Source: an uncultured Planctomycetota bacterium (lineage in GTDB: Bacteria; Planctomycetota; Planctomycetia; Isosphaerales; Isosphaeraceae). From it: DNA of 64,000 bases. Under the pieces are notes generated by a model. The model was not told the DNA's origin, did no database searches, and saw only the letters and a program-made list of their open reading frames with translations. The DNA lies in the NCBI GenBank assembly GCA_963823665.1, contig CAWGMQ010000008.1, positions 384,001 to 448,000 on the forward strand, in the 5' to 3' direction. Each line of letters opens with the position of its first letter. Position 1 is the stretch's first letter. Positions 1 through 45,246 of this stretch are shown one piece after another. The translations under genes were made by a program, and so were the position numbers.

Positions 1-516
1 GCAGCACCCAAACACGCGCGAGAGCGGCTGGCGAAGGTCCCGTATTTCCTCATGTACGGCCCGAAAGCGAGAAATGGCGGGAAGCCGAGCGGGCTTGACT
101 ACATTCAGAAGAATGGGCCTGAGCATCATCCCGAGCTCGACCCGCGGTGGGGTGACGCCATTGTGATCTACTGTGCCAAGAATTATCTGGACATCACGGA
201 TCTCTGGGCGCTCAAAGCACTCTTCCATGAACTTGGCCACGCCTATCAACTCGAGCAGTGGCCCGAGAAACAGCCGGACATTCTCGCGGCCTGGGAGCAC
301 GCCCGGGACAACAATCTGTACTTGAACGTGCGTGACGTCGAAACCGGCAAGAGACTGCCCGAGGCGTATGCACTCACGAATCAGCTTGAATTCTTCGCCG
401 AACTCTCGTGTATGTATTTTGTTCGATGCAACTACGAGCCGTCGAATCAAAAACAGCTCAAGGCTTACGATCCGGTGGGGTACGCGATGATCCGGAAGAT
501 GTGGAAGGTCGAGTGA
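1..516 (+). CDS. Zn-dependent metallopeptidase (MtfA/anthrax-LF-like zincin), 5' part outside window
   Basis: Frame open from base 1; HELGH (HExxH) motif and downstream EFFAE third-ligand motif, C-terminal LKAYDP. Confidence 0.7.
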   Translation, partial: AAPKHARERLAKVPYFLMYGPKARNGGKPSGLDYIQKNGPEHHPELDPRWGDAIVIYCAKNYLDITDLWALKALFHELGHAYQLEQWPEKQPDILAAWEHARDNNLYLNVRDVETGKRLPEAYALTNQLEFFAELSCMYFVRCNYEPSNQKQLKAYDPVGYAMIRKMWKVE

Positions 517-2767
517 CGGGCGATTTTGGCCCGTCGGTCAGGAATTCGGTGGGGTTCAACATCACTTCGTCGCCGCTCTCGATTCCTTGCTTGATCTCGA
601 CGAGCTTGTCGCTGGAGAGACCAAGGCTCACCTCGCGCAGCTCGATAGCACCGCCGGGCTTCTGCACCGCCACGTGGGCTTTTTGGGTGTTGGGATCGTA
701 ACGAAGGATCGCCTCGACGGGAACGGCTAACGCGTTTTCGCGATGAGCGAGCAGGAACTCGACGTGGGTTGCCATGCCGGGGCGAAGCTCCGGGATGGCG
801 TTGTCGACCGTGACTTTGGTCGTGTAGAACTTGGCGCCGCCCTGGGTCAACGCCGGCGCGTCTGGCAGGGGCGCGATTTCGACGACCGTGCCATCGAACG
901 ACTGGCTGTGAAAGCTGTCGACGCGAATCGTGGCGTGCATCCCTCGTCGAAGCTTATCGACGTGCGATTCGCGCACTTTCGCGATCACCAGCTTCGGTCC
1001 CTTTGGGTCGATCACGCTGAGGATCTTCTGCCGTTCGCGGACCTGCGCACCTTCCTCGATTTGAGGGATCGGGGGTTGGTTTGCGCGGCTGCGTGGTGGG
1101 TTTGCGTAAACGATCGTGCCGTCTCCGGGCGCGATGATCTTGCATGCGGCGATTTGCCTCTCCAGCTTCCTCTGCTTACTCTGCTCGAGCTGCCACCTGG
1201 CCTGTTTGGCGAGCTCGTCCAGCCGCTTTTGTTCGACGTCAACTGTCAGCGCCTTGATCGTCTTTTCTTTGGTGTACTTCTCAAGAAGCTCCCGCCTCGA
1301 CTTCGCCAGCTCAAGTGCGGCCTTCTCACGTTCGATGGTTTGTTCGCTTACGTCGACGCGGTCTTCAATTTCGAGCTCCGTCAGTACGTCCGAGGGCGCC
1401 GCGGCACCGTTCCTGGCTGCCGCCAGCTCGGCGAGTCGCTGGCGAGCGCGCCGGGCTCGATCGAGCCGGTGTTCGGCTTTCTGGATGGCTGATTCGGCGA
1501 GAGTCACGTCTCTCTGCACTGCGCTCAACTCGTGCTTGTAAGTGCCCTCGATAAACTCCCGCACAGCGAGCTCAGTGACCTCCCGGGCAGCGGTGGCGGT
1601 TTGATATTCGGCATTTGCGCTCGCGACCGTGATCTGGGCGTTCGTCAGTCGATCGCGAAGCGAAGCCGAGTCGAGCTCACAGATCGTCTCTCCCTTCTTG
1701 ACGAACTTGCCGTCAGGAACGATCTGGATGATCGTCGTTCCTCCCTCAACGCTGCTGTAAACGTCCTGATGCCGCGCCGAGTCAAGCTGGCCCCGCTCGA
1801 CGATGGTGAGGTCGAGCTTGCCTGGCGTGACGCGAAGCGTGAGGGGGCCGTCGCCGCGGGTTGTGTGGGCGCCGTCTGCGGTGTTCGTTCGCGCCGCGGG
1901 GGCCTGCCTTTGTGCGTAGATGCCGGCGCCCGAGACGGTCGCTCCTAACACGAATAGAACGGAGCCGGTCTTCAACCATCGGGCGAGTGACATGGCTTTC
2001 GTAACCTCCTGCGCGAGCGAGAGAGTCGACGCTTTGACGGCGGTCTGGCAGGTGACAAATTGAACGATTGAGCGGGTGGTGGATTCGACCAGGGCAGGCG
2101 GGACAACCGGATTGGCAGCGGTGAAAACGGAGCCGCTGCCGAGCAACGCAACGTTCGGTGTGACACCTTGCCGTCGAAGCCGATCGCGGAGTTTTTCGCG
2201 GCCCCGCGCCTGTCGGCTTTTCACGGTGCCGACCGGCCAGCCCAGATGCCTTGCCGCCTGCTGGTGGCTGCATCCCTCGAGATCGCAGAGAATAACGGGC
2301 GTCCGATAACGCTCGGGGAGCCTTTCGATCTCTTGGTGGAGCAAATTGTCGAGATCGGCGGTTTTCACGGTGTGTGCCTCCGGCCGGGTTGCGGCCACGC
2401 GCTCTTCATGCTTCCGCCGCCGGGCAGCGGCGAGTCGGGCGCACGACGCGGTGCGAAAGGCAACCTGATGGAGCCACGGGCCGAGCGAGTCGCGAACCCA
2501 CAATCCGCGCGCCTTCTGGACCAAGACCAGGAATGTGGCCTGGAACGCGTCGTCGACTTCGAGGCCACCGGAGAGCGTGCTTCGGCAGACGCGGAGAACC
2601 ATCGGCCCATGGCGCTCAACAAGCACGGCGAAGGCCAGCTCGGCTGCCTCGCTGCGGTCAGTGGCAAACCGCTCGAGGAGTTGACCGTCGGTCAGGTCGC
2701 GGACCACTCCGATGTTGAAGAGCGTTTTGAGCTCGTGGACCAGGGCCGCGCTTTGGTCGCATTCCAT
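458..2767 (-). CDS. ECF sigma-70 factor fused via TM helix to RND/HlyD-type membrane fusion (periplasmic adaptor) domain, copy 1 (intact)
   Basis: sigma2 (TDGQLLERF..RHGPMV..DDAFQATFLVL), sigma4 (LPERYR..GWPVGTVKSR), TM (VLFVLGATVSGAGIYA), then lipoyl halves, coiled coil, APGDGTIVY, LRPGM; start MECDQ at 2767 with GGAGA RBS. Confidence 0.9.
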   Translation of the reverse strand: MECDQSAALVHELKTLFNIGVVRDLTDGQLLERFATDRSEAAELAFAVLVERHGPMVLRVCRSTLSGGLEVDDAFQATFLVLVQKARGLWVRDSLGPWLHQVAFRTASCARLAAARRRKHEERVAATRPEAHTVKTADLDNLLHQEIERLPERYRTPVILCDLEGCSHQQAARHLGWPVGTVKSRQARGREKLRDRLRRQGVTPNVALLGSGSVFTAANPVVPPALVESTTRSIVQFVTCQTAVKASTLSLAQEVTKAMSLARWLKTGSVLFVLGATVSGAGIYAQRQAPAARTNTADGAHTTRGDGPLTLRVTPGKLDLTIVERGQLDSARHQDVYSSVEGGTTIIQIVPDGKFVKKGETICELDSASLRDRLTNAQITVASANAEYQTATAAREVTELAVREFIEGTYKHELSAVQRDVTLAESAIQKAEHRLDRARRARQRLAELAAARNGAAAPSDVLTELEIEDRVDVSEQTIEREKAALELAKSRRELLEKYTKEKTIKALTVDVEQKRLDELAKQARWQLEQSKQRKLERQIAACKIIAPGDGTIVYANPPRSRANQPPIPQIEEGAQVRERQKILSVIDPKGPKLVIAKVRESHVDKLRRGMHATIRVDSFHSQSFDGTVVEIAPLPDAPALTQGGAKFYTTKVTVDNAIPELRPGMATHVEFLLAHRENALAVPVEAILRYDPNTQKAHVAVQKPGGAIELREVSLGLSSDKLVEIKQGIESGDEVMLNPTEFLTDGPKSPVTRPSTSSGSSRTPPDRKP

Positions 2768-2856
2768 TGGTGGGGATTCTCCGTCGCGGGGATGGTCGAG
2801 GCGGACCCTACGAGAGCGTGTGTCGGCGGCGGACGCGGTTGGCCCCGCCACAGGTA

Positions 2857-2882
2857 ATGTACCGCGGGGCGCTCAGAGTTCC
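2857..2882 (-). promoter_or_regulatory. Putative ECF-type promoter GGAAC-N15-GTACAT of copy 1
   Basis: Both boxes invariant in all three copies while the spacer diverges. Confidence 0.65.
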
Positions 2883-2902
2883 GAGATTCTGGGGATTCGC
2901 AG

Positions 2903-2977
2903 TCGAATCAAAGCGGACTCACGGCTTACGATCCGGTGGGGTAGGCGATGATCCGGAAGATGTGGAGGGTTGAGTGA
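2903..2977 (+). pseudogene. Fossil 3' tail of the Zn-peptidase (copy of 442-516)
   Basis: Reads SNQSGLTAYDPVG*AMIRKMWRVE* versus SNQKQLKAYDPVGYAMIRKMWKVE*. Confidence 0.85.
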
Positions 2978-5214
2978 GGGGTGATGTTGTCTTTCCGCTC
3001 AACGTGGCAGTGGGATTCAGGATCACGTCGTCGCCGCTTTTCAATCCTTGCGTGATCTCGACAACCTTCTCGCTGGAAAGGCCCACGCTCACGGCGCGGA
3101 GCTCGCTCTTGCCGCCGGCCTTTCGCACGGCTACGTGGGGCTTTCCTTCGTGATGGAGTATTGCCTGAACGGGCACAGCCATCGCGTTCTCTCGATTGGC
3201 GAGTAAGAACTCGACCTCGGTCGACATGCCGGGGCGCAGGCCGGGGATGGCGCCGTTGATGAGCACCTTGGTGGTGTAAACACTCGCGCCCGAGTCTGAG
3301 GGAAGCGAGTCCGGCAGGGGCGCAATGTCGGTGACGACGCCGTTGAATAACTGTTCGGGGAAGGCGTGAACGCGAACCTTGGCTTTCATGCCGCGCCGAA
3401 TGCCGGCGACCTGCGACTCGCTCACCTTGGTGGCAACCTGCATTCTCGATAGGTCTGGAATCGATAGGATTTTCTGCCTCTCCCGAACCTGCGCGCCTTC
3501 CTCGATATATGGGAATGGCGGGCGGTTTGTCCCGACCCGTGGCGGTTTGGCATAGACCAGCAGTCCGTCCGTGGGCGCTACGAGCGTGCACGCCGCAATT
3601 TGTCGCTCGAGGCTCTTCGCTTTGCTCTGCTCAAGCTGCCATCGCTCTTGTTTCGCGCGCTCTTCGGGACGAGCTCGCTCGACCTCAAGTGCGAGCGCTT
3701 TGAGCGTTCTGTCTCGCGTAAATTTCTCGAGGATCTCCTGTCTGGACTTTGCGCGGTCGAGCGCGGCCTTTTCGCGCAACAGGGATTGTTCGCTTTCATC
3801 GAGCCGGTCTTCGATGTCAAGCTCGGCTACGATATCCGAAGCCGCGACGACTCCGTTCTTGCCAGCCAGTAAGTCGGCGAGCCGCTGACGAGCTTTGCGG
3901 GCTCGATCGCGCCGGCGCTCGGATTGCTGGATGGCCGATTCGGCCAGGGCCACGTCCGCCTTGGCGGAATTCAGCTCTTGCGTGAATGTGCCATCGACGA
4001 ATTCCGCGACCGCACTTTCGGCGAGCTCACGGGCGACCCTGGCATTTTGAAAATCGACCTCGGCGTTCTTGATCGCGATCTGGGCGTTGACCAGTTGATC
4101 CCTTAGCGACGCTGAATCGAGCTCACAGACGACCTCGCCTTTTGTGACCCGAGTTCCTTCGGGCTTGATCATGATGATGGACGTTGTACCCTTGACGTTA
4201 CTGAACATGTCTTGATTCCTCGCCGATTCGAGCGAACCTCGCTCAACATAGGTGAGCTCGAAGGCACCCGGCTTGACCTGGAATGTGATCGGCTCGTCGC
4301 TAAGGGCGGTTTCGGTATCAGTTCGGGCCGGAGGCGGAGGCGCAGGCGCTCGACCGTGGGTAACCAGCCCGGCGCCCGAGACAGTCGCGCTGATCACGAA
4401 AAGTACGGAAGCGGCCTTCGACCATCGCGATAGCGACATGGCTTTGACAACCTCTTGCGCGAGTGAGAGAGTCGATGCTTTGACCGCGGTCTGGCATGTG
4501 ACAAATTGAACGACGCAGCGAATGGTTGATTCGACGAGCACCGCCGAGACCACGGGTTGGGGACCCATCGAGAGAGAGCCGCTGCCGAGCAAAGCAACGT
4601 TCGGCACGACGCCCTGGCGGCGGAGCCGGTCGCGGAGTTTTTCCCGTCCCCGTGCCTGCCGACTTTTGACCGTGCCGACTGGCCAGCCCAGATGCCGCGC
4701 CGCCTGCTGGTGGGTGCATCCTTCGAGATCGCAGAGCACAACGGGCGAGCGATAACGCTCGGGCAACCTTTCGATCTCGGCGTGGAGTAAACCGTCAAGA
4801 TCATCATTTTTCACAGTCTGTGCCTCCGGCCGAGTGGCCGCCAAGCGCTCTTCGTGCTTCCGCCGGCGGGCGGCGGCCAGGCGGGCGCGCGACGCGGTGC
4901 GAAAGGCAACCTGATGGAGCCATGGGCCGAGGGAGTCGCGAACCCACAGGCCGCGCGCCTTCTGGACCAGGACGAGGAACGTGGCCTGGAACGCGTCGTC
5001 GACTTCGAGCCCGCCGGAGAGTACGCTTCGGCAGACGCGGAGGACCATTGGTCCGTGGCGCTCGACGAGGATCGCAAACGCGAGCTCGGCGGCCTCGCCG
5101 CGGTCGGTGGCGAAGCGCTCCAGGAGCTGACCGTCGGTCAGGTCGCGGACGACGCCGATGTTGAAGAGTGTTTTGAGGCTCATGAGCCAGGGCCGTGCTT
5201 TGGTCGCATTCCAT
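2919..5214 (-). CDS. ECF sigma factor-RND membrane fusion protein, copy 2 (+1 frameshift near 5178)
   Basis: Paralog of 458-2767 over full length; MECDQ start at 5214 is in another frame because of one extra G (ttttgaGgctc vs ttttgagctc). Confidence 0.88.
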
Positions 5215-5240
5215 TGGTGGGGATTCTCCGCGGCGGGGAT

Positions 5241-5262
5241 GGTCCGCAATGGCGGACCCTAC
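5241..5262 (-). repeat. GTAG-type REP hairpin GTAGGGTCCGCCATTGCGGACC in 5'UTR of copy 2
   Basis: GTAG plus GGTCCGC/GCGGACC stem; same family at about 51615-51636; shortened versions in the UTRs of copies 1 and 3. Confidence 0.7.
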
Positions 5263-5307
5263 GGTAGCGTGTGTCCGCGGGTGAGTCGGTTGGCCCCGCT
5301 ACAGGTA

Positions 5308-5333
5308 ATGTACCGCGAAGCGGTGGGAGTTCC
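5308..5333 (-). promoter_or_regulatory. Putative ECF-type promoter GGAAC-N15-GTACAT of copy 2
   Basis: ggaac tcccaccgcttcgcg gtacat on minus strand. Confidence 0.65.
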
Positions 5334-5353
5334 GAGATTCTGGAGATTCGCCG

Positions 5354-5425
5354 TCGAATCGAAACGGGCTCAGGCTTACGATCCGGTGAATCGCGATGAT
5401 TCGGACGATGTGGAAGGTGGAGTGA
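5354..5425 (+). pseudogene. Second, more decayed fossil tail of the Zn-peptidase
   Basis: gccgtcgaatc..gcttacgatccggtg..gatgtggaaggtggagtga aligns to 438-516 with small deletions. Confidence 0.8.
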
Positions 5426-7746
5426 CGGGCGATTTGGGCCGGTCACTCAGGAATGCGGAGGGATTCAAGATCACGTCGTCGCCGCTCACGATGCCTTGCG
5501 TGATCTCGATGAGCTTGTCGCTCGAGTGGCCGACGCTCACCTCGCGAAGCTCGACGATCGCCTCCGGGCTTTCTTACGGCTACGTGGGGCTTGCCCTCGT
5601 AACGAAGAATCGCCTGGACGGGCACCGCGAACGCGTTGTCGCGATTGGCGAGGAGGAACTCGACTTCTGCCACGATGCCCGGACGCAGGCCGGGGACTTC
5701 GTTGTCCAACAGGAGGTGGGTCGTGTAGACCTTCGAGCCTCCCTGGGTGATGGCCGCCGCGTCTGGCAAGGCAGAAACTGCATCGACCGTGCCGTTGAAC
5801 GACTGGCCCGGGAAGCCGTCGATGCGAATCCGGGCTTTCATGCCGCGCTTGATGTGATTGACCCTCGCTTCACGCACTTTGGCCGTCACCCGTTTCTGGG
5901 CGTTCGGGTCGATCACACTGAATATCTTCTGGCGTTCGCGGAGCTGCGCGCCTTCCTCGATTTGATCCGCGGGGCCCTGATTTCCGCTTGGGACGGCGAG
6001 GCCGGCTCGTTCCAACCGGTGACGTTCCTCGATTTGAGCCGCGGACCCCTGATTTCCACGGCCGCGCGGAGGAGGGGCGTAGACCACGGTGCCGTCTGCC
6101 GGCGCTTTGATACTACACGCCGCGACCTGCCGCTCGAGCTTATCCGCGTTGCTCCGCTCGATCTGCCAGGTAACGCGTTTGGCAATCTCTTCGGTGCGCT
6201 TCCGATCAACCTCGAGTGCCAGTGCCTTGAGCGTCTTGTCGCGGGTGTATTTACTCGAGGATCTCCTGTTTGGTTTTCGCCTGCTCAAGGGCTGCCTTTT
6301 CGCGAGCGATGGTTTGCTCGCTCGCGTCGATCCGGTCTTCAATGTCGAGCTTGGCCAGGATGTCCGCGGGCGCGGCTACACCCTTTCTTGAAGCCATCAA
6401 ATCGCCGAGCTGGTCGCGTGCCTGCCGCGCACGATCTCGCCGCCGCTCGGCATGCTGGAACGCTGACTCCGCCAATGCAACATCGGCTCTGGCGGAATTC
6501 AACTCGTACTTGAAAGTTCCATCAACAAACTCGGCGACGGCGCTTTCGGCGAGTTCCCGCGCGATCCTGGCGTTTTTATGCATCGACGCTCCGCGGTCTG
6601 CACAATGATCTGGGCGTTCGTCAGTCGATCGCGAAGCTCCGCCGAGTCAAGTTCACAGACCAGCTCACCCTTCTTCACGAACGCACCCTCCGGCTTGATC
6701 ATGATGATCGACGTCCCTCCTTCGATGTTGCAGAAAGCGTCGTTCGTGCGGGCCATTTCGAGCCGGGCCGGCGAGACGATCGTGAGGTCGAGCCGGCCGG
6801 GCTTGACCCGGAGCGTGAGCGGCTCGTCGGCACGGGTTGTGGCTGCTACGCTGGTTCCGGCATTGAGCCGCGCCGCGGGCGTCTGCCTCTGCGCGTAAAT
6901 GCCGGCGCCCGAGACGGTCGCTCCTAACACGAACAGGATGGAACCCGTCTTTAACCATCGTGTCATCGACATAGCCTTGAGAACCCCCTGCGCGAGTGAG
7001 AGAGTCGACGCGTTGACGGCGGTCTGGCATGTGACAAATTGAACGACCGAGCGAATGGTTGATTCGACGAGCGCCGGCGAGACAACGGGATTGGGGCCCA
7101 TCGAGAGAGAACCGCTGCCGAGCAAGGCAACGTTTGGTACGACGCCCTGACGGCGAAGACGGTCGCGGAGCTTTTCCCGCCCCCGTGCCTGGCGGCTCTT
7201 GACGGTGCCGACCGGCCAGCCAAGATGCCTTGCTGCCTGCTGGTGGCTGCATCCTTCGAGATCGCAGAGGACCACGGGTGCGCGGAAACGCTCGGGGAGC
7301 TTTTCGATCTCGGCGTGAAGGAAACAATCGGGAGCCTCATTTTTCACGGTGTGTGCCTCGGCCCGGTTGGCAGCCGCGCGCTCTTCATGCTTTCGCCGGC
7401 GGGCGGCGGCCAGGCGGGCGCGCGACGCGGCGCGAAAGGCAACCTGATGGAGCCACGGGCCTAGCGAATCCCGAACCCACAGGCCGCGTGCCTTCTGGAC
7501 GAGGACCAGGAACGTGGCCTGGAACGCATCGTCGGAATCGAATTCGCCACCCAGTACGGTTCGGCAGACTCGGAGAACCATCGGGCCGTGGCGCTCGACC
7601 AGCACGGCAAACGCCAGCTCGGCGGCCTCGCCGCGGTCAGTGGCGAAGCGCTCCAGGAGCTGGCCGTCGGTCAGTTCGCGGATCACCCCGATGTTGAAGA
7701 GCGTTTTGAGCTCGTGCACCAGGGCCGCGCTTTGGTCGCATTCCAT
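5370..7746 (-). CDS. ECF sigma factor-RND membrane fusion protein, copy 3 (several frameshifts; pseudogene or sequencing errors)
   Basis: ORFs 6499-7746, 6251-6583 and 5443-6342 together align to copies 1 and 2; MECDQ start at 7746. Confidence 0.85.
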
Positions 7747-7831
7747 GTGTGGGGATTCTCCGCGCGGGGGATGGTCGAGGCGGACCCTACGAGGGAGGCG
7801 GCGGGTGAGTCAATCGGGCCCGATACATGTA

Positions 7832-7857
7832 ATGTACCGCGGGGTGCTCGGAGTTCC
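7832..7857 (-). promoter_or_regulatory. Putative ECF-type promoter GGAAC-N15-GTACAT of copy 3
   Basis: ggaac tccgagcaccccgcg gtacat on minus strand. Confidence 0.65.
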
Positions 7858-7954: not shown

Positions 7955-9765
7955 TCAGTCTTCTCGGTAGGGCTGCTTTTCGCGGTAGAGTTTGAGCCGC
8001 TCGTCGCCCTTCTTTTTGTCTTCGGCGTCGGAATAGAGTGCATTCGCCTTGAATTGCCACTTCACGGCCGCGTCGAATTCGCCTGCCTCAGCTTGGGCCG
8101 CGGCGAGTGTGCCGATGGAACAAGCTTCCGTGTATTGGGTCAGCTCGCATGCCTTGGTCGCTGACTCAAGCGCCTTTTTGGGATCGCGATACTTCGCATC
8201 CGGGCAGGTCGCCCAGAGCCATGCGTGGCCGCAGTAGGCAGAGGAGTTATCTGGATCAAGCCGGATGGCTACCTCGTAATCGACGATTGCTTTGTCGTAT
8301 TGCTTCTGGTAGCACCAAGCATCCGCACGATACACGTAAGCCAAGGAGTATTTAGGGTCGACGCGGATGGCTTCGCTGAAACCGGCGATTGCTTTGTCGT
8401 AGTCCTTCTTGTCGTACCAGACGTCGGCGCGGTACAGGTAAGCCCTTGCGTATTTGGGATCGAGGCGAATGGCTTCGTCAAAATCGGCGGTGGCCTGCGT
8501 GTAATCCCTCTTCACGTACCAGACTTCGCCACGGTGGCAGTAAGCGAGCGCATCGTTGGGATCAAGGCGGATGGCTTCGCTAAAATCGGGAATTGCCCGG
8601 GAGTAATCCTTCTTCGCGCACAAGCCTCGCCACGATTGAAATAAGCCCCGGCGAGGGCGGGATCGAGACGGATCGCGTTGTCGCAGTCGGCAATCGCCTT
8701 GAGGTAGTCTTTCTTGCGAAGCCAGCAGGCGCCGCGGTTGATGAAGGCGAGCGCCAACTGCGAATCGAGGCGGATCGCCTGGCTCAGGTCGGCAAGTGCG
8801 CGATCGAGGTCCCCTTTGTGCAAAAGTGCGGCGCCGCGGTTGTTGTAGTACATAGCGTGGTGCGGATCGAGCGGGATTGCCTCGTTGAAATCGGCAATCG
8901 CACGGTCGTAGTCTTTCTTCAAGAAGAAAGCGCCACCACGACCGCCGTACGCTTTTGCAAGCTTCGAATCGAGCTGAATCGCATTGGTAAAATCAGCGAT
9001 CGCGCGATCGTAATCCTTCATGCGATCGAATGTAATGCCACGGTTGAGGTAGGCTTTGGCGTACGTGGGCTTGAGCCTGATTGCCTCATTGTAATCGGCA
9101 ATCGCGCTCCGGTAGTCGTTCTTGCCCCACCATGCGAGGCCCCGGTCATAGTAGGCGACGGCGTCATTCGGCTCGAGCCGGAGGGCTTGGTTGAAATCGG
9201 CAATCGCCTTGTCGTATTCCTTTGCGTCGGACCAGAACAGGCCTCGATTGCAATAGAGGTAAGCTTTTGCCGGAGCGAGACGAATCGCTTGATCGTAGTC
9301 GCTCAGGGCGCGGTCGGTCTCGTGCATCATGTCGTGCCGGATGATCGCCCGCCCCGAATACGCAAAGCTATCGCCCGGATTGGACCGGATGCATTCGGTG
9401 AAGAACGCGTCGGCTTGGTCCATCGAGACAACGGAATCCGCGAGCGCCCATCCGCTTGGACCGCCTTCTTCGGGTTCCAGCCAGAGCCAATTGCCGTTGA
9501 CGTGCTGGACTCGATAGGCGGTTGAGACCATCGGGTGGAAGACCTGGTGCTCGATCTTCAAATGGAAGCCGCGGCGACTCGCCACGACTCGCTTGCCGAG
9601 CCAGCCGCCCGAAGGCTGAGCGGCGTGGGTTGGCGGTGGGCCGATGGTATTCAGAAGGAGGAGCGAGGGTAATAGAAATAGCGCCGGAAAGATGCGGAGC
9701 GCTCCGGCCCGAGTCCGTGCCGCGAGTTTGGATGATCTGCACGCCTGCGCGATACCGTATGGCAT
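7955..9765 (-). CDS. Exported TPR protein A (signal peptide, SH3-like N-domain, 11 TPRs, ATCPD cap); frameshift near 8620
   Basis: 34-aa repeats AY.NRG..W..K.DYD.AIAD...AIRLDP across ORFs 8512-9870 and 7955-8623; GGAGG RBS before 9765. Confidence 0.85.
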
Positions 9766-9895
9766 GGCTTGCCGCTCCCTCCGTGAGCTGTGGCGGCGCT
9801 CCCGCGGTTCGCGTTTTGTCGATGGGAACCGCGACAATTGGATCACTGGCGCGCGGCGTTGGTTGCGCACGGAACCATCGAGCGCATACCAATCC

Positions 9896-10191: not shown

Positions 10192-13067
10192 CTACGACTT
10201 TGGGTGGTCGATGCGATCGAGAAGCACCTTGAACTCGGCCTCGGAGAGAACCTGCGTGAAGTCGGGCTCGGCGCGGATCGGGGTGGGATCGCGGTAGCCG
10301 CCATCGACCGCGCGGGCCAGTGCATCGTGCGCGAGTGCTCGCGCGCGGCGACCTTCATCATCGTTAGCACGGGCGGCGCAGACCGCGAAACAGCGGGCGA
10401 GGGGAAGGAGGATGGGCGTTCGATCCGCGTTCGACTTGAGCAAGTCTTCGGCCTTTTTCAGTGCCTCGTCGCGACGACCTGAATGCGCCAGCGCAAGGGC
10501 GAATGCCGCTTGCATCGGCAAGTTGTGGGGCTCGAGCTGCGCGAGATCGGTGCGAATCTCGAGGGCATTACGCCAGAGTCGCTCTGCGTCCGCGGGCTTG
10601 CCGTGCTTGGATGTTAGCGCGGCCAGCAACTCGCTGTCGGCGGCGGTCACTTGTCGCTGGAACGTGTCTTCGGCGTCGTGAGCCAGCACTTCGCGTGCGT
10701 AGGCAAGCGATTGGTTCAGGGCGCTCTCCGCTTCGGCATCCTGGCCGCTTCGCGCCAGCATGGCGCCATATTCGCCTTGAATTGTGGCCAGGTCACCCCG
10801 GAACGGCATGTGCTGCGGGTGCTGGGTGATGAGCAAGGTGCAGATCTGGAGCGCCTGATCAAAGTGGCTGCGTGCGTCTGGCCAGTCGCCGAGCTGACTG
10901 CTGGCGACGCCCAGCCAGAGCTCGGCTTCCGATGCGTAGCTTTTTGCGTTCCCATTGCGGGGCTCGAGCTTGATCCAGGCGCGTCTCAGTTCGAGCGATT
11001 TCTGGAACCGCTCGCGCGCAAGTGACGCGTGGCCCAGGGCGAGCTCGGCGGTCCCCTGTTTGATCGCGATGCCGGAAAGGATTCGATCGTTGTCCGCAGC
11101 GGTGTAGTTGCCGCTCTTGGGGTGCAGCGAGATTTCTTCCTGGACCTTCCAGGCGCGGGCGAACTCGTCGCGAGCGCGGGCGGCATCGCCGGTTTGATCG
11201 AGAGCCGTCTCGCCCAGGCGGACCAGCATGACACCCAGGTTGGCGCGCGCCACGTCGTTGGTGGGCTGATCGTTCGCCACCCGAGCGATCCGGTCGTAGC
11301 CTTGTTGATATTCCCGGCGCGCGTCGTCGACTTGACCGAGCTTTCGAAGCATGTCACCCAATCGCTGATGAAGCGTTGCAAATGCGAACGGGCTGACTCC
11401 CTGGCCCTCGATCCGCTCGGCCAGGGGAACCATCTCTTTCTGGAGCATGGTCAAGAGGTCGGTGCGGAGGCGGAGCCATTCCGCCTCGGCGCGCGCGGGA
11501 TCGTGCTGGGCCTTGAGGCGGACCATCACCTGCTCGCCCAGGTGGATCATCTGCACGATGGCATCCTGAGCAATTCCCTTGGCGGCCGTTTCCTGGCTGC
11601 GGGCGCGGGCTTCGTTGGCGCTGGCCCGCTTGGCATTGGCAAGCGCCTCCTCGGCCTTTGAGTGGGCCTCTTGGGCGTTGTGCTGGGCGAGCGCCGCGTT
11701 ATTCCTGGCAGCACGGGCATTGGCGAGCGCATTGCGCTCATTGGTGAGCGCCAGCCGATAGAGAAACGTCGAGGTCGCCGCCCAGGCGAGGACCAGGAGC
11801 GCCACGACCGCGCTCAGGCCCGCGACCCAGGGATTGCGCCGGCACCAGCGCCAGAGCCATTCGGCGCTGCTCACGGGTCGGGCCAGAATCGCTTCGCCCG
11901 AGAGGAAGCGGCGGAGATCTTCCTCGAGTGCGTCTGCGGAGGCGTAGCGCCTGGCGGGATCCTTCTGCAAGCACTTCAGGCAAATTGTTTCGAGATCACG
12001 CGGTATCTTGGGCTGAAACTGCGAAGGCGGAATCGGCTCCTGGGTGCGCACTTGCAGAAGCGTGTCCAGGACCGACGCGGCGCGAAACGGCGGGCGCCCG
12101 GTCATGAGCTCGTATAGGATGCCGCCGAGCGCATAGATGTCTGTGGACGGGCCGATATCCTTGATTCTTCCCTCAGCCTGCTCGGGGGCCATGTAGCTGG
12201 GGGTGCCCAGGATCGAGCCGGACTGGGTTTGGCCGGCGTCGTCTTCGAGGCGCTTGACCAGGCCGAAATCGCTGACCTTGGGCTCACCGGATTCGGTCAG
12301 AAGGACATTCGCGGGCTTCAAGTCGCGATGCACGATGCCGCGCTCGTGGGCGTAATGCATGCCGCCGGCGAGCGTTTTGACCAGTTGTGCGGCGTCGCGC
12401 GGCGGGAACGGAGTGCCGGCTATCTTCCTGGCGAGGCTGCCGCCGGCGACATATTCCAGCGAGAAGAAAGGCTGGCCGTTGTCTTCGCCGACCTCGTAGA
12501 TCTGGACAATGTTGGGATGCTGCAAATCGGCAACGGCCATGGCCTCGCTGCGAAACCGCGCCAGGTCTTCCGGGGCGTGATGTCCCACGGCGCTGATCAT
12601 CTTGAGCGCGACGATTCGCTTGAGCCCGCGCTGACGGGCCTTGTAAACGACGCCCATTCCTCCCTGGCCCAGCACCTTGAGGATCTTGTAGCCGGCAACC
12701 TGGTCGAGGCGGGGTGGCGGCACGGCCGCGGCGGAGTCCGAGTCGGAGCTGGCATCGGATGGGTCGCGGGCTGGGAGCTGGAATGTCGCGGAGTCGGTGC
12801 TGTCGACGGGCGAGCTGACGGCAGAGCCTGCGAGCGTCGGGGCGAGTATTTCGCGCGGTGGCGCTCGGGATCGTCTGCCAACGTCGAGCCGGCTTCGTGG
12901 GGGGTGTGACGATGCGATTCGGGAGCGGGCTCCGGACTGATCGCGTGCGGGGCGCCTTCGACGCGTGTGGTGTTCATCGGGAACGTATCACGCGACGGTT
13001 CCTCGCCCGAGGCTCCGGACGGATTCTGATTGACCGTTTCCTGAGTGGGTCTGGGAGAATCATTCAT
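10192..13067 (-). CDS. Hanks-type Ser/Thr protein kinase with TM helix and C-terminal TPR-like helical domain; frameshift in N-terminal linker
   Basis: LGQGGMGVVY, VALKM, HRDLKPAN, DFG, GTPSYMAPE; WCRRNP plus TM; N-terminus MNDSPR in ORF 12597-13154. Confidence 0.9.
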
Positions 13068-13165
13068 GGGACTCAACGGAGTTCGACATTGCGAGTGGTC
13101 TCGTCGGCGGATGTGCTTGCCTTCAAAGATACCGCGTCTCTTGATTCCCTGCACTATTGATCAAG

Positions 13166-15082
13166 TCAGGGCTCGCGGTAGGGCTTCTTCTCTCTGAAGA
13201 GCTTGAGCTTCTCTTCGCCCTTCTGTTTGTCTTCGGCGTCGGTGTAAAGTGCATTCGCCTTGGTCTGCCATTCCACCGCCGCTTCGAAGTCGCCCGCCTC
13301 GGCGTGGGCTGCGGCGAGACTGCCGAGGGAGCAGCCATCCTTCCATTCCGTCAGCTCACAGGCTGTCGTCGCTGAATCAACAGCCATCTTGCCCATGCGG
13401 TAATTGGCGTCGGGGCAGGTGGCCTGGAGCCAGGCTCGGCCGCAGTAGGCGCTCGCGTATTTGGGATCGAGACGGATGGCTTCGGTGTAATCGGCCATCG
13501 CTTTGTCGGGTTGCTTCTTGGCGTCGCGGGCATCGCCACGCCAGACGTAGGCCTTCACGTACTTGGGGTCGAGACGGATGGCCTCGGTGTAATCGGGAAT
13601 TGCCTTGTCGTACTCTTTCTTGGCGTACCAGGCGTCTCCGCGGTAGCAGTAGGCCGAAGCGTACGCCGGATCGAGACGGATGGCCTCGGTGTAATCGGGA
13701 ATTGCCTTGTCGTACTCTCTCTTGGCGTACCACGCATCCCCGCGGTAGCAGTAGGCCAAAGCGTACGCCGGATCGAGACGGATGGCTTCGGTGTAATCGG
13801 CAATGGCCCGGTCGTAGTCTTTCTTTTCGTACCACGCGTTACCGCGGTTCTCATACGCGCGGGTGTAGTTCGGATCGAGACGAATCGCGTCGTTGTAATC
13901 GGCTATCGCTCGGTCGCGATCGTTCTTTTCGGACCATGCGCTACCGCGGTTACTGTGCGCAATCGCGTATTTCGGATTGATTCGGATCGCCTCGGAGTAA
14001 TCGGCAATCGCCCGGTCGTGATCCTTCTTGCCGTACCACGCGTTGCCGCGGTTATTGAAACGGCTGGCGCGGCTCGGATCGAGCCGGATCGCCTCGGAGT
14101 AATCGGCAATCGCCCGATCGTAGTCGTTCTTGCCGTACCACGCCTCGCCGCGATTGTTGTACGCAGCGCCGGCCGTCGGGTCGAGACGGATCGCTTCGTC
14201 GTAATCGGCGATAGCCCGGTTGAAATCCCTCTTGGCGATCCAGGCATTTCCGCGGTTGATGTACTGGCGTGCGTCCTTCCGGTCGAGCTGGATCGCCTCG
14301 TTGTAAGCGGCGATCGCCCGGTCATAGTCCTTCTTCGCGGACCAGGCATCACCTCGGGCGACGAACGAGGGAGCGTGCGTCGGATCGAGCCGGATCGCCT
14401 CGTTGTAATCGGCAATCGCCCGGTCATAGTCCTTCTTGCCGCACCATGCATTGCCGCGGTTGTGGTACGTTGCCGCGTCCTTCGTGCCAAGTTCGATCGC
14501 CACGCTGTAATCGGCAATCGCCCGGTCGTACTCCTTCTTGTCGGACCAGGCCAGGCCGCGATTGTAGAAGAGACACGCTCTCGCAGGGTCGAGCCGAACT
14601 GCTTCATTGTAATGGGCGAAGGCGCTTTCGAAGTCGTGTTGCTCCGCACGCAGAATGCTCGCTCGCATTGTGTATGAAAAAACGTCGCCTGGATTGGACC
14701 GGATGCAATCGCTGAAGAATGCGATGGCCGCGTCGAGGGGGACAACTCGATCGGCGAGCGCCCAACCGCTCAACTCCCGCTCCTCCGACTTGAGCCAGAG
14801 CCAGGGACCGTTCACCTGTTCGACCCGGTAGATCGCGATTTCATCCCTGCGATCGATTAGCTGGTTTTGGATCTTGAGTTCGAAGTGGGCGAGTTTCTGC
14901 ACGACCCGCTTGCCGATCCAGCCGTTATCGGGCCCGGCGGAGCGAGCGATTGGCGGGGCCGCCGAGATGAGCAACACAACGGCCGCCAGCAGGATTGGCC
15001 TGGCGAAGGAGCCGAAAGGCGCCGGGTTTCGCAACACATGGCAACCCGGCAATTCGTGGTCAGCCGCGATGTGCAACGTCAT
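13166..15082 (-). CDS. Exported TPR protein B (paralog of 7955-9765; 12 TPRs plus cap)
   Basis: Signal peptide, WIGKRVV..VNGPWLWL..SGWA domain, 34-aa repeats, AWLQATCPDA cap. Confidence 0.9.
   Translation of the reverse strand: MTLHIAADHELPGCHVLRNPAPFGSFARPILLAAVVLLISAAPPIARSAGPDNGWIGKRVVQKLAHFELKIQNQLIDRRDEIAIYRVEQVNGPWLWLKSEERELSGWALADRVVPLDAAIAFFSDCIRSNPGDVFSYTMRASILRAEQHDFESAFAHYNEAVRLDPARACLFYNRGLAWSDKKEYDRAIADYSVAIELGTKDAATYHNRGNAWCGKKDYDRAIADYNEAIRLDPTHAPSFVARGDAWSAKKDYDRAIAAYNEAIQLDRKDARQYINRGNAWIAKRDFNRAIADYDEAIRLDPTAGAAYNNRGEAWYGKNDYDRAIADYSEAIRLDPSRASRFNNRGNAWYGKKDHDRAIADYSEAIRINPKYAIAHSNRGSAWSEKNDRDRAIADYNDAIRLDPNYTRAYENRGNAWYEKKDYDRAIADYTEAIRLDPAYALAYCYRGDAWYAKREYDKAIPDYTEAIRLDPAYASAYCYRGDAWYAKKEYDKAIPDYTEAIRLDPKYVKAYVWRGDARDAKKQPDKAMADYTEAIRLDPKYASAYCGRAWLQATCPDANYRMGKMAVDSATTACELTEWKDGCSLGSLAAAHAEAGDFEAAVEWQTKANALYTDAEDKQKGEEKLKLFREKKPYREP
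13569..13772. repeat. Two near-identical 102-bp tandem TPR-coding units
   Basis: 13569-13670 vs 13671-13772 differ at about 5 positions by eye. Confidence 0.85.
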
Positions 15083-15207
15083 GGCTCACCGTTCCCTCCG
15101 TGTGCTGCGCCGGCATCTGCGCCCGTGTGCGCGGCAAATGCGGCCGCGACGATACGAGTGTCGAACCGGCGGGTCAAGAGCAACCGATGCGGTCGCGCAT
15201 CCAACAA

Positions 15208-43931: not shown

Positions 43932-45084
43932 TCACCGATTGTTGATTGGCTTCACCGCACGGTGAGGGGGGCCGATATAGCGCGCCCGCGGCCGCATCAA
44001 TCGGTTGTGGTCGAGCTGCTCGATGACGTGGGCTGCCCAGCCAGCGACGCGCGCCATTGCGAAGATCGGCGTGTAGAGGTCGGTGTCGAGCCCCATGTAG
44101 TGATAGAGTCGTGCGCTCGGCCAATCGACATTGGGCGGGAGGTGCTTCTGCGTCGTCACGACTCGCTCGATGGGCTCGGCCATTCTTTCCCAGCGGTCGT
44201 CGCCGATTTCGTTGGCGAGCTCGATGCAGTAGGGCGTGAGAATCGCGGTGCGCGGGTCGCCTTTCTTGTACACGCGGTGTCCGAACCCCATGATTCGCTC
44301 TTTGCGTGCAAGGGCCGCCTGGATCCATTTCTCCGCATTCTCGGGGGAGCCGACTTGCTCGAGCAGCTTCCACGCTTCTTCATTGGCACCGCCGTGCAAG
44401 CGGGCCCTTGAGCGTGCCGATGGCGGCGACGATGCCGGAATAGATGTCAGAAAGCGTGGAAACGGTGACTCTCGCCGAAAAGGTTGAGGCGTTGAGCTCG
44501 TGCTCGGTATAGAGGACCATCGAGAGGTCGAACGCCTCGCGCATGGTCTCGGACGGCACCTTGCCGTTGACCATGTTGAGGAAGTTGGCGGCATGATCGA
44601 GATCGGCTCGGGGCTCGATCACGGGCAGGCCTTTGACAATCCGCTCGCGAAAGGCGACGGCGGTGGCCATCTGGGCGAGCAGACGCTCGGCCTTGCGGAC
44701 GTTGGCGGCATGATCCAGGGGCGAAGCGTTGCAATCGGGATCGAAATGAGCCAGCACACTCACCGAGCTGCGCAGAACGTCCATGGGATGGACGTTCTTG
44801 GGAATCTGACCGTAGAGGGCGACGAGCGGCTCTGGAATCGCTCGACTGCGTCTGAGTCGAGCGTCGAACTCGCTCAACTGTGCGCGGGTCGGGAGATCGC
44901 CGTGCAGGAGCAGGAAGGCAGTTTCCTCGTAGGAGACGTGACCGGCGAGGTCTTCGATCCGGTAGCCTCGGTACTCGAGGCCGCCGGCGCCGTCGGTCCC
45001 CTCGATATTGGCGATGGCCGTTTCATTCGCAATGACGCCTTCCAGGCCAGGACGATAATCGTCCGCCGCAGACACGCCGCTCAT
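43932..45084 (-). CDS. Citrate/2-methylcitrate synthase family (frameshift near 44400)
   Basis: GLEGV, EHELNASTF, GPLHGGANE, MGFGHRVY..GDPR, PNVD. Confidence 0.92.
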
Positions 45085-45246
45085 ATCGGAACTCCACAGA
45101 AATTTGATCGCCACGGCAGCACAAGCGGTCGAGAACCACACGACCGGCCGGGATGAGCAAGGATCGGGCCCTCGCTCGCGAGCAACGCCCGATTTCTTCC
45201 GAGTCTATTCCGCCAGTCTAGACGAATCGGCCCGAGTGTTCCATGA

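What the first reader, a model, noticed from the sequence alone, without database searches (positions are those of the whole stretch)
458..7857. Tandem array of three membrane-anchored ECF sigma factor-RND adaptor fusions
Seen: three head-to-tail paralogs with a period of about 2.45 kb, each sigma2-sigma4, linker, TM, then a complete HlyD/MacA-type membrane fusion domain. The sigma4 HTH segment (QQAARHLGWPVGTVKSRQARGREKLRDRLRRQGV) is identical in all three, while the adaptor domain has diverged visibly more. No RND/ABC pump or TolC gene lies next to them in this window. Known: planctomycetes encode ECFs with TM-linked C-terminal extensions (ECF57-like), and adaptors normally oligomerise with pumps. 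Inference: this is a one-component signalling system in which an efflux adaptor senses pump assembly, substrate or envelope stress and controls a tethered sigma factor. The paralogs would share one promoter output but differ in input. I know of no functional characterisation of such a fusion.
Basis: partly seen in the sequence, partly recalled or inferred. Interest (0 to 1): 0.82.

Follow-up and report, generated by a model that had tools for sequence, protein, structure and literature searches.

The report
Tethered sigma factors wearing disarmed pump-adaptors
Three neighbouring genes of a soil planctomycete each join a stress-type sigma factor, through one membrane helix, to a copy of an efflux-pump adaptor that has lost its outer-channel docking motif; they are likely self-activating envelope sensors of a known but untested sigma group, not pump parts, and each may also make a second, sigma-less protein from an internal start.

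Summary
The fusion is real and recurrent: 88 of the 120 best adaptor-domain relatives carry a sigma domain. Only copy 1 is intact in this assembly. Copy 2 has one and copy 3 four frame-breaking insertions, probably long-read errors (one is absent from a matching short-read contig). The sigma is ECF57-type, one of over 100 such genes here. The ectodomain is a complete MacA-like fold derived from the family's MacAB-TolC-type adaptor. It keeps the ring-forming residues, but its TolC-docking tip is replaced by a conserved 19-residue extension (97 of 99 fused, 0 of 38 free adaptors). None of 17 relative loci has an adjacent pump. A GGAAC-N17-ACATTAC motif precedes 20 of 24 regions upstream of such genes and 0 of 9 pump operons. 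A Shine-Dalgarno-biased in-frame Met opens a signal-peptide-like helix. Best model (0.4): an autoregulated one-component sensor released by membrane proteolysis, with the adaptor as a pump-independent oligomeric ectodomain. HlyD tails on planctomycete ECFs were already tabulated in 2020, and this scan saw the fusion and the internal start before on other DNA. Verdict: new variant of a known kind.

The parts
458..2767 (-). Copy 1: intact 769-aa ECF57-type sigma - linker - TM - MacA-like adaptor (P0001)
2444..2623 (-). Copy 1 sigma region 2 (residues 49-108) with conserved Cys61
2189..2344 (-). Copy 1 sigma region 4 (residues 142-193) with conserved Cys161 and the HTH shared by all three copies
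1994..2164 (-). Copy 1 cytoplasmic linker (residues 202-258), two predicted low-confidence helices
1991..2014 (-). Copy 1 internal Shine-Dalgarno-like sequence and in-frame ATG (Met259), a candidate second start
1904..1993 (-). Copy 1 signal-peptide-like transmembrane segment (residues 259-288: basic n-region, hydrophobic core, small-residue c-region ending A|Q)
   Evidence: cleavage is inferred
542..1843 (-). Copy 1 MacA-like adaptor ectodomain (residues 309-742): membrane-proximal, beta-barrel, lipoyl and a hairpin of two 84-residue helices
1352..1477 (-). Copy 1 remodelled hairpin tip (residues 431-472): 19-residue extension replacing the RLS-type motif
2854..2882 (-). Candidate autoregulated promoter of copy 1 (GGAAC-N17-ACATTAC)
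2919..5214 (-). Copy 2: same architecture; +1 insertion near 5178 (likely assembly error); intact ortholog P0008 exists
4437..4460 (-). Copy 2 internal SD-like sequence and in-frame ATG
5305..5333 (-). Candidate promoter of copy 2
5370..7746 (-). Copy 3: same architecture, read in pieces; four single-base insertions (one contradicted by a short-read contig) and a 72-nt in-frame duplication in the lipoyl loop
6970..6993 (-). Copy 3 internal purine-rich stretch and in-frame ATG
7829..7857 (-). Candidate promoter of copy 3

Best explanation
Each gene encodes an ECF57-type sigma factor joined by one membrane helix to a MacA-derived adaptor that lacks the TolC-docking motif; the protein is likely a self-activating, pump-independent envelope sensor whose sigma half would be held at the membrane until proteolysis releases it. 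SHOWN in sequence: the architecture, the ECF57 cysteine pair, the origin of the ectodomain from the family's MacAB-TolC-type adaptor, retention of ring-forming residues, replacement of the tip, absence of neighbouring pumps, a conserved two-block motif about 100-150 nt upstream of these genes, and an SD-biased in-frame Met in front of a signal-peptide-like helix. INFERRED: (1) the motif is the sigma's own promoter and its main target is its own gene (about 0.8); (2) the ectodomain still forms MacA-like rings but no longer bridges to TolC (0.65); (3) the internal Met yields a sigma-less, exported or anchored ectodomain that co-assembles with the full-length protein (0.55); (4) a disturbance of ring assembly or binding at the new tip exposes the juxtamembrane site to signal peptidase or another site-1 protease, then a site-2 protease frees the sigma, as in IutY and RsiV (0.5); (5) more transcription makes more ectodomain, which re-buffers the signal. 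The three paralogs would share the promoter and differ in what their ectodomains detect. The stimulus itself is not identified.
For: Fusion recurs: 88 of 120 top adaptor hits have a sigma domain; the long tip is found in 24 of 60 genomes of the family and 0 of 92 genomes of other families searched with this query. ECF57 marks: Cys in sigma2 82 of 82 and in sigma4 79 of 82 own-genome paralogs (definition in PMC7826278 supplement). Origin: 43% identity to the free adaptor of the OMF-adaptor-ABC-permease operon at G000:C10; 18 sampled long-tip adaptors plus one short-tip fragment form a 100/99 branch inside the free adaptors. Ring residues kept: MacA E231 equivalent E in 95 of 99, Y275 equivalent Y/F in 98 of 99, T293 equivalent T/S/N in 94 of 99 (role per PMC8277102 section 7.3). 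Docking lost: anchor span 87-92 residues in 97 of 99 fused vs 71 in 38 of 38 free; RLS-spaced tip in 1 of 99 vs 30 of 38 (motif and its need for TolC binding per PMC3391258 passages). No adjacent pump in 17 of 17 relative loci, while 9 free adaptors with intact flanks sit in the four-gene operon. Promoter motif in 20 of 24 upstream regions (14 of 18 without the six copies from this genus), PWM 18.9-31.9, against at most 2.9 upstream of 9 pump operons and at most 9.7 in 26 background tiles. Internal start: Met in 66 of 82 paralogs and 63 of 65 matched family members; SD-like word in 37 of 78 vs 18.8 +/- 2.9 after synonymous resampling, no signal at 10 control offsets; Gly codon GGA in 16 of 19 vs 129 of 751 in the same amino-acid context; same 11-nt spacing as the genes' real starts. 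Sigma-less long-tip adaptors with their own signal peptides exist (P0067, P0073, P0111). M50 site-2 proteases are in the genome.
Against: No stimulus, cleavage, oligomer or transcript was observed. The membrane-proximal and beta-barrel domains that contact pumps are intact and about as conserved as the rest, so binding to a MacB-type transporter in trans is not excluded. A small-small-Q cleavage-like site is present in only 32 of 65 family members. In a stricter recount with one fused gene per genome only 7 genes were captured and the SD excess was modest (6 vs 4.1, reached in 43 of 2000 resamplings), because the Q-E-V protein motif itself spells an SD. No GTG or TTG occurs at the internal Met position in 82 genes, which a true start site might be expected to show. 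Promoter sites were used to build the PWM that scores them. The exact motif occurs genome-wide only at chance level (11 vs 10 control), so a wider regulon with degenerate sites is neither shown nor excluded. The linker and TM are low-confidence in the model.
Confidence: 0.4

Rival explanations
1. Expression cassette, not sensor: the adaptor-like protein is the useful product (for example a periplasmic spacer, plug or pump modulator). It is made from the internal start or freed by routine signal-peptidase cleavage, while the sigma is switched by something else, such as redox or metal binding at the cysteine pair, and simply amplifies its own gene.
For: The only conserved motif target found is the gene itself. 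The segment after Met259 looks like an ordinary signal peptide in nearly all paralogs: K/R in the first 10 residues in 81 of 82, [AV]xA in 54 of 82. Tails include enzyme-like domains (thioredoxin 2, M16 peptidase, di-haem oxidoreductase among 73 scanned). Sigma-less long-tip adaptors exist. The Cys pair is nearly invariant and is proposed as a switch (PMC7826278 supplement, PMC8999054 passages).
Against: A dedicated sigma per tail, with a tail-specific -35 element (GGAAC for adaptors, GCAAC in 7 of 7 OMF fusions), is easier to explain if the tail feeds information back. Hairpin-only and barrel-less tails are poor effectors.
Confidence: 0.25
2. One reading: the fused adaptor joins a real MacB-type pump encoded elsewhere, alone or in mixed rings with the free adaptor, and reports pump assembly, substrate load or clogging to the sigma.
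For: Complete four-domain fold with MacAB-TolC as best structural match; 43% identity to the in-genome free adaptor; ring residues conserved; the genome has 14 MacB_PCD matches and many RND and OMF matches; the parent operon's adaptor is matched in most family genomes.
Against: Tip motif and FFSSD loop lost; hairpin longer by 19 residues, which would mismatch in a mixed ring at the TolC interface (inference); no co-location; no promoter motif at the pump operons.
Confidence: 0.2
3. Fortuitous capture: a duplicated sigma landed in front of an adaptor gene and the tail has no regulatory role, as proposed in general for planctomycete ECF extensions (PMC7671368).
For: Very diverse tails in one genome; repeated independent captures of adaptor pieces; fused adaptors evolve faster than free ones; two of three copies are broken in this assembly.
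Against: dN/dS 0.27 in the adaptor; a new conserved tip motif in 71 of 99; spread over 22 of 53 genera searched; the shuffled unit includes a conserved linker, Met and TM, not only sigma2-sigma4; the breaks look like assembly errors.
Confidence: 0.1

Closest known systems
ECF57 (planctomycete ECF sigma factors with TM-containing C-terminal extensions; PMC7826278 supplement, PMC8999054)
   Same: Sigma2-sigma4, conserved Cys pair, membrane helix, long variable extension, TPR genes nearby, proposed release from the membrane.
   Different: Described tails are WD40 and homeodomain-like; here a MacA-like adaptor with a remodelled tip. One predicted helix rather than about two. The group is described as having no conserved promoter, whereas this subclade has a clear motif. 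The internal start is not mentioned in the passages read.
Planctomycete ECF extensions by gene sequestration (Pinto and da Fonseca 2020, PMC7671368)
   Same: Same phenomenon; the supplementary Pfam table has HlyD, HlyD_3, HlyD_D23, Biotin_lipoyl, OEP and Poly_export columns, and two Fimbriiglobus ECFs are named efflux adaptors.
   Different: The paper treats tails as fortuitous and does not discuss HlyD in the main text (0 occurrences). Here the tail is conserved, remodelled and under purifying selection.
MacA of MacAB-TolC, and the Isosphaeraceae-type OMF-adaptor-ABC-permease operon
   Same: Four-domain fold, ring-forming residues, inner-membrane anchor; direct ancestor of the ectodomain.
   Different: No RLS-type tip, longer hairpin, variable beta-barrel loop, no pump operon, N-terminal sigma factor.
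IutY of Pseudomonas putida (sigma/anti-sigma hybrid; PMC5411451 abstract)
   Same: Sigma, TM and periplasmic domain in one chain; activation by Prc then RseP is the working precedent.
   Different: FecI/FecR type, driven by a TonB-dependent receptor; unrelated ectodomain.
RsiV / sigma-V of Bacillus subtilis (PMC4183432 abstract)
   Same: Precedent for ligand-gated signal-peptidase cleavage next to a membrane helix.
   Different: Separate anti-sigma protein, lysozyme ligand, Gram-positive host.

Membership tests
ECF57 | Sigma2 and sigma4 only, no other sigma70 regions | tested here: met
   only Sigma70_r2, r4 and r4_2; TIGR02937 66.7 vs cut-off 42.9
ECF57 | Conserved cysteine pair, one in sigma2 and one in sigma4 | tested here: met
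   C61 and C161 invariant in 80 family members; 82 of 82 and 79 of 82 in own paralogs
ECF57 | C-terminal extension with transmembrane helix (group average about 2) | tested here: met
   one hydrophobic segment at residues 259-288 by hydropathy; no dedicated TM predictor was run
ECF57 | Planctomycete host | tested here: met
ECF57 | TPR genes in the neighbourhood | tested here: met
   TPR proteins at 7955-9870 and 13166-15082; shared with only 2 of 16 relative loci
ECF57 | Assignment by the ECF group HMMs or subgroup tree | not testable with these tools
   ECF group models are not among the libraries offered
ECF57 | Activation by release from the membrane (proposed, untested in the group) | not testable with these tools
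   needs experiment
MacA-type pump adaptor | Membrane-proximal, beta-barrel, lipoyl and hairpin domains | tested here: met
   AF2 model with high confidence over 310-745; best Foldseek hits 9qgy_G and 5nik_D; TIGR01730 passed
MacA-type pump adaptor | Hexamerisation residues (E231, Y275/276, T293 of E. coli MacA) | tested here: met
   95, 98 and 94 of 99 fused proteins; copy 1 has Ala at the T293 position
MacA-type pump adaptor | RxxxLxxxxxxS tip motif for OMF docking | tested here: not met
   1 of 99 fused vs 30 of 38 free
MacA-type pump adaptor | Encoded with a MacB or RND transporter and an OMF | tested here: not met
   0 of 17 relative loci and not in the window (tblastn with own-genome pump proteins, two loci under 7 kb)
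MacA-type pump adaptor | NCBIfam MacA equivalog cut-off | tested here: not met
   NF008606 68.3 vs 342 bits; the free adaptor also fails (64.5), so this test does not discriminate
MacA-type pump adaptor | Physical assembly with transporter and OMF | not testable with these tools

The most novel reading that the evidence does not exclude
A pump-less ghost of a tripartite pump used for signalling. One sigma subclade in this genome carries only pump-derived tails: three long-tip adaptors, a POTRA-plus-adaptor, a bare hairpin and a TolC-family protein with both beta-barrel segments deleted, all behind promoters with the same -10 element. The remodelled adaptor tip would dock the barrel-less OMF or act as a ruler across the periplasm; sigma-less isoforms from the internal starts would build the scaffold, and its assembly state would gate release of several sigma factors. 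ECF57 genes in general would be two-product cassettes.
Probability: 0.12. Interest if true: 0.85.

Novelty: new variant of a known kind. Interest (0 to 1): 0.55.

Why it matters
ECF57 is the most expanded sigma group in planctomycetes (5.3 per genome on average in PMC7826278; over 100 here), and no member was described as tested in the papers read. This subfamily gives a ready test set: a candidate promoter, a candidate cleavage site, a candidate second start, and an ectodomain whose ancestor and altered surfaces are known. It argues against the view that these tails are accidental. If the internal start is real, a large class of regulators makes a sensor and its own buffer or effector from one gene. 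It would also be a case of an efflux-pump part reused as a signalling ectodomain.

Tried and rejected
No RNA holder listed for the stretch; this says nothing on expression. Short-read contigs cover only scattered pieces, so most breaks in copies 2 and 3 stay unchecked. Single-sequence AlphaFold model unusable (pLDDT 41.8). A FastTree tree placed free adaptors inside the fused ones, probably from long branches; the IQ-TREE subset gave the reverse and is preferred; the one-clade test did not finish. The first codon control was mis-indexed and was redone. One of 16 rows in the relatives' SD test was a false regex match without an SD (13 of 16 as run, 13 of 15 without it). A count of 36 of 120 reflects split BLAST segments and was not used. 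Genome-wide promoter scans gave chance-level counts and no regulon beyond ECF genes. No conserved neighbour gene apart from generic kinases and TPR proteins. A second structural look (VIA-align) was not obtained. No 16S rRNA found in the own genome; the anti-SD was checked in three relatives instead. Jogler 2012 and Wiegand 2020 are not held; their text and supplements may describe these fusions. Literature searches found no study of a sigma-adaptor fusion or of an internal start in an ECF gene. The weak ATLF/M90 hit on the neighbouring peptidase is below cut-off and was not pursued.
Full report
OBSERVATION. The minus strand of 458-7857 holds three paralogs with starts at 2767, 5214 and 7746. 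Copy 1 is a 769-residue open frame with Sigma70_r2, Sigma70_r4_2, HlyD_D23 and HlyD_3. Copy 2 has one extra base near 5178. Copy 3 has four single-base insertions, a 72-nt in-frame duplication and two small deletions in its last codons. The breaks are probably assembly errors. A 152-nt short-read contig with no mismatch lacks base 6256, which puts the two flanking ORFs in frame. A second contig adds a base at 8619, where a TPR gene is split, and a third at 15121. Each rests on one contig of depth under 5. A same-genus genome has the same three-gene array between kinase/TPR genes and a peptidase, broken at other positions (L108). P0002 and P0008 are intact orthologs of copies 1 and 2. I found no intact ortholog specific to copy 3, so it may still be a pseudogene. 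The 34-residue HTH is identical with 14-16 nucleotide differences; dN/dS is 0.075 in the sigma and 0.27 in the adaptor for copies 1 and 2.

THE SIGMA HALF. The genome is 16.5 Mb. Of the 150 listed matches to copy 1, 138 fall in the sigma/linker half (my count by eye; some are pieces of one gene, and only 150 of 324 candidates were scored). I examined 82 such ORFs, a few of them near-duplicates. All have a Cys in sigma2 and 79 have one in sigma4, the ECF57 mark given in the supplement of PMC7826278 (passages). After sigma4 comes a loosely conserved linker of about 57 residues, then Met in 66 of 82, a basic residue within ten positions in 81 of 82, a hydrophobic stretch and a small-residue c-region. 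Of 73 tails scanned, 21 are carboxypeptidase-regulatory-like repeats, 6 WD40, 3 Wza-like, 2 thioredoxin-like, 2 OMF, 1 HlyD, 7 other single families and 31 without a family. The array is one subfamily of a large modular set.

THE ADAPTOR HALF. With the adaptor as query, 88 of the 120 listed proteins also have a sigma domain. The model from an 80-sequence alignment has mean pLDDT 77, a confident sigma, a low-confidence linker and TM, and a complete adaptor with two 84-residue hairpin helices. Its best structural matches are MacA in MacAB-TolC. The closest free adaptor in the genome is 43% identical and lies in an OMF-adaptor-ABC-permease operon on contig C10. In an IQ-TREE subset of 35 rows with the tip removed, 18 long-tip adaptors and one short-tip fragment form a 100/99 branch among free adaptors (midpoint root). 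An earlier FastTree tree disagreed. Between two fixed anchors the hairpin spans 71 residues in 38 of 38 free adaptors and 87-92 in 97 of 99 fused ones. The free tip has (W/R)xxx(M/L)xxKGY(V/I)S, which has the spacing of the RLS motif needed for TolC binding (PMC3391258 passages); it occurs in 30 of 38 free and 1 of 99 fused proteins. The fused tip has its own motif in 71 of 99. An FFSSD-type beta-barrel loop is kept in 32 of 38 free and 10 of 99 fused; that this loop contacts the transporter is my inference from the domain's role. The residues tied to MacA ring closure (PMC8277102 section 7.3) are kept in 94-98 of 99. Fifteen truncated and 8 unclassified rows were set aside from these counts. 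The long tip was found in 24 of 60 family genomes and in none of 92 genomes from other families, with this one query.

CONTEXT AND PROMOTER. None of 17 relative loci with a sigma-adaptor gene has an adjacent pump; two have a transporter about 6.6 kb away on the other strand, and two loci are short contigs. Tandem arrays recur (L093, L099, L105, L108, L110). A GGAAC-N17-ACATTAC motif lies about 100-150 nt upstream in 20 of 24 regions, and the long exact form occurs only at the three copies in this genome. A matrix from these sites scores at most 2.9 upstream of 9 pump operons. A looser exact pattern gives 11 genome-wide hits against 10 for the control; five lie upstream of ECF genes by coordinates, and in 4 of 5 relatives one hit lies upstream of the fusion gene. 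The motif therefore looks autoregulatory, and I found no sign that it controls the pump.

INTERNAL START. An SD-like word precedes the internal Met in 37 of 78 paralogs, against 18.8 +/- 2.9 when synonymous codons are resampled, with no signal at ten control offsets; relatives gave 13 of 16 against 6.9 +/- 1.3. In the matched amino-acid context the Gly codon is GGA in 16 of 19 genes against 129 of 751 elsewhere. GGAG ends 11 nt before the ATG most often, as at the genes' real starts, and 13 of 17 permease starts carry such a word. Three relatives have the anti-SD tail (pattern recalled). Against: a recount limited to 7 fused genes gave 6 vs 4.1 (43 of 2000), and GTG/TTG never replace the ATG. 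I put the second product at a little better than even.

MECHANISM. Best reading (0.4): a self-activating one-component sensor. The sigma is tethered, the ectodomain forms pump-free rings with or without sigma-less subunits, and a change in its state would permit site-1 and site-2 cleavage, as shown for IutY (PMC5411451 abstract) and RsiV (PMC4183432 abstract). M50 proteases are present. Rivals: an expression cassette whose tail is the product and whose switch is the Cys pair (0.25); a monitor built into a real pump (0.2); neutral capture (0.1). Nothing here shows cleavage, binding or a stimulus.

A WIDER PATTERN. The nearest sigma paralogs in this genome carry a POTRA-plus-adaptor, a TolC-family tail and a bare hairpin (support 0.89 for five members, 0.52 for six). 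The TolC-family tail lacks two long segments relative to its parent OMF, which I read as the beta-barrel parts. It is sigma-fused in this genome and 6 relatives, always behind GCAAC with the same -10 element. This suggests repeated domestication of pump parts with loss of their outer-membrane connections, and is the basis of the novel case (0.12).

WHAT IS KNOWN. ECF57 is described with TM-containing extensions, WD40 tails and proposed release from the membrane; HlyD is not mentioned for it (PMC7826278 main-text passages and supplement passages, supplement cut when stored; PMC8999054 passages). PMC7671368 (section 12 part 1, passages and supplement head row) describes tail capture and lists HlyD, OEP and Poly_export among Pfam hits in the tails; I saw the column names, not the rows. 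A 2026 adaptor review has no occurrence of 'sigma' or 'fused' (PMC13328181). Searches found no study of this fusion. Jogler 2012 and Wiegand 2020 could not be read. This scan noted the same fusion in another genome (e1-2638792).

VERDICT. Real, conserved and uncharacterised; a new variant of ECF57, not a new class. It works like a sigma/anti-sigma hybrid by inference, and it fails membership as a working MacA adaptor on the tip motif and operon tests. Interest 0.55.

Noticed in passing
L007 409-2610 (-), G000:C4; also L237, L239, L240, L244, L247, L248: ECF57-type sigma fused to a TolC-family protein lacking two long segments (probably the beta-barrel parts); found in 6 relatives, always with a GCAAC...CATTAC promoter variant.
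   Followed up: partly
L112 (G000:C11 near 322-325 kb): Fourth sigma-adaptor fusion with a POTRA domain before a shortened adaptor; sister to the three copies in the sigma tree.
   Followed up: partly
L012, L113, L114, L205 (G000): ECF57-type sigmas carrying only a hairpin (L012), lipoyl plus hairpin (L113, L114) or a different adaptor type (L205): repeated captures of adaptor parts.
   Followed up: partly
P0067, P0073, P0111, L097, L110 9052: Long-tip adaptors without a sigma, some with a classical signal peptide.
   Followed up: no
82 ECF57-like genes of G000: Family-wide in-frame Met with SD-biased codons in front of a signal-peptide-like helix; a possible second product from most of these genes.
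   Followed up: yes
L157 (G000:C8 1137-1143 kb): Three tandem ECF57-type sigmas with Wza-like (Poly_export plus SLBB) tails; L155 holds five in tandem with carboxypeptidase-regulatory-like repeats.
   Followed up: no
window 1-516 (+): HExxH zinc-peptidase-like gene converging on copy 1 and overlapping its 3' end by 59 nt; weak M90/ATLF hits below cut-off; also next to the array in the same-genus genome.
   Followed up: partly
window 7955-9870 (-), 10192-13154 (-), 43932-45141 (-): Other split genes: a TPR protein (short-read contig adds a base at 8619), a Ser/Thr kinase, and a citrate-synthase-like gene (label recalled from the translation, not tested); consistent with indel errors.
   Followed up: partly
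L119 (G000:C6 809-813 kb): Four adjacent partial adaptor-hairpin matches, one resembling the long tip, downstream of a divergent ECF gene.
   Followed up: no
L116 (G000:C5 1008-1011 kb) and L111 16169-17308: Free adaptors with no pump match within the stretches fetched.
   Followed up: no
G000: No 16S rRNA match in this 92% complete assembly.
   Followed up: no
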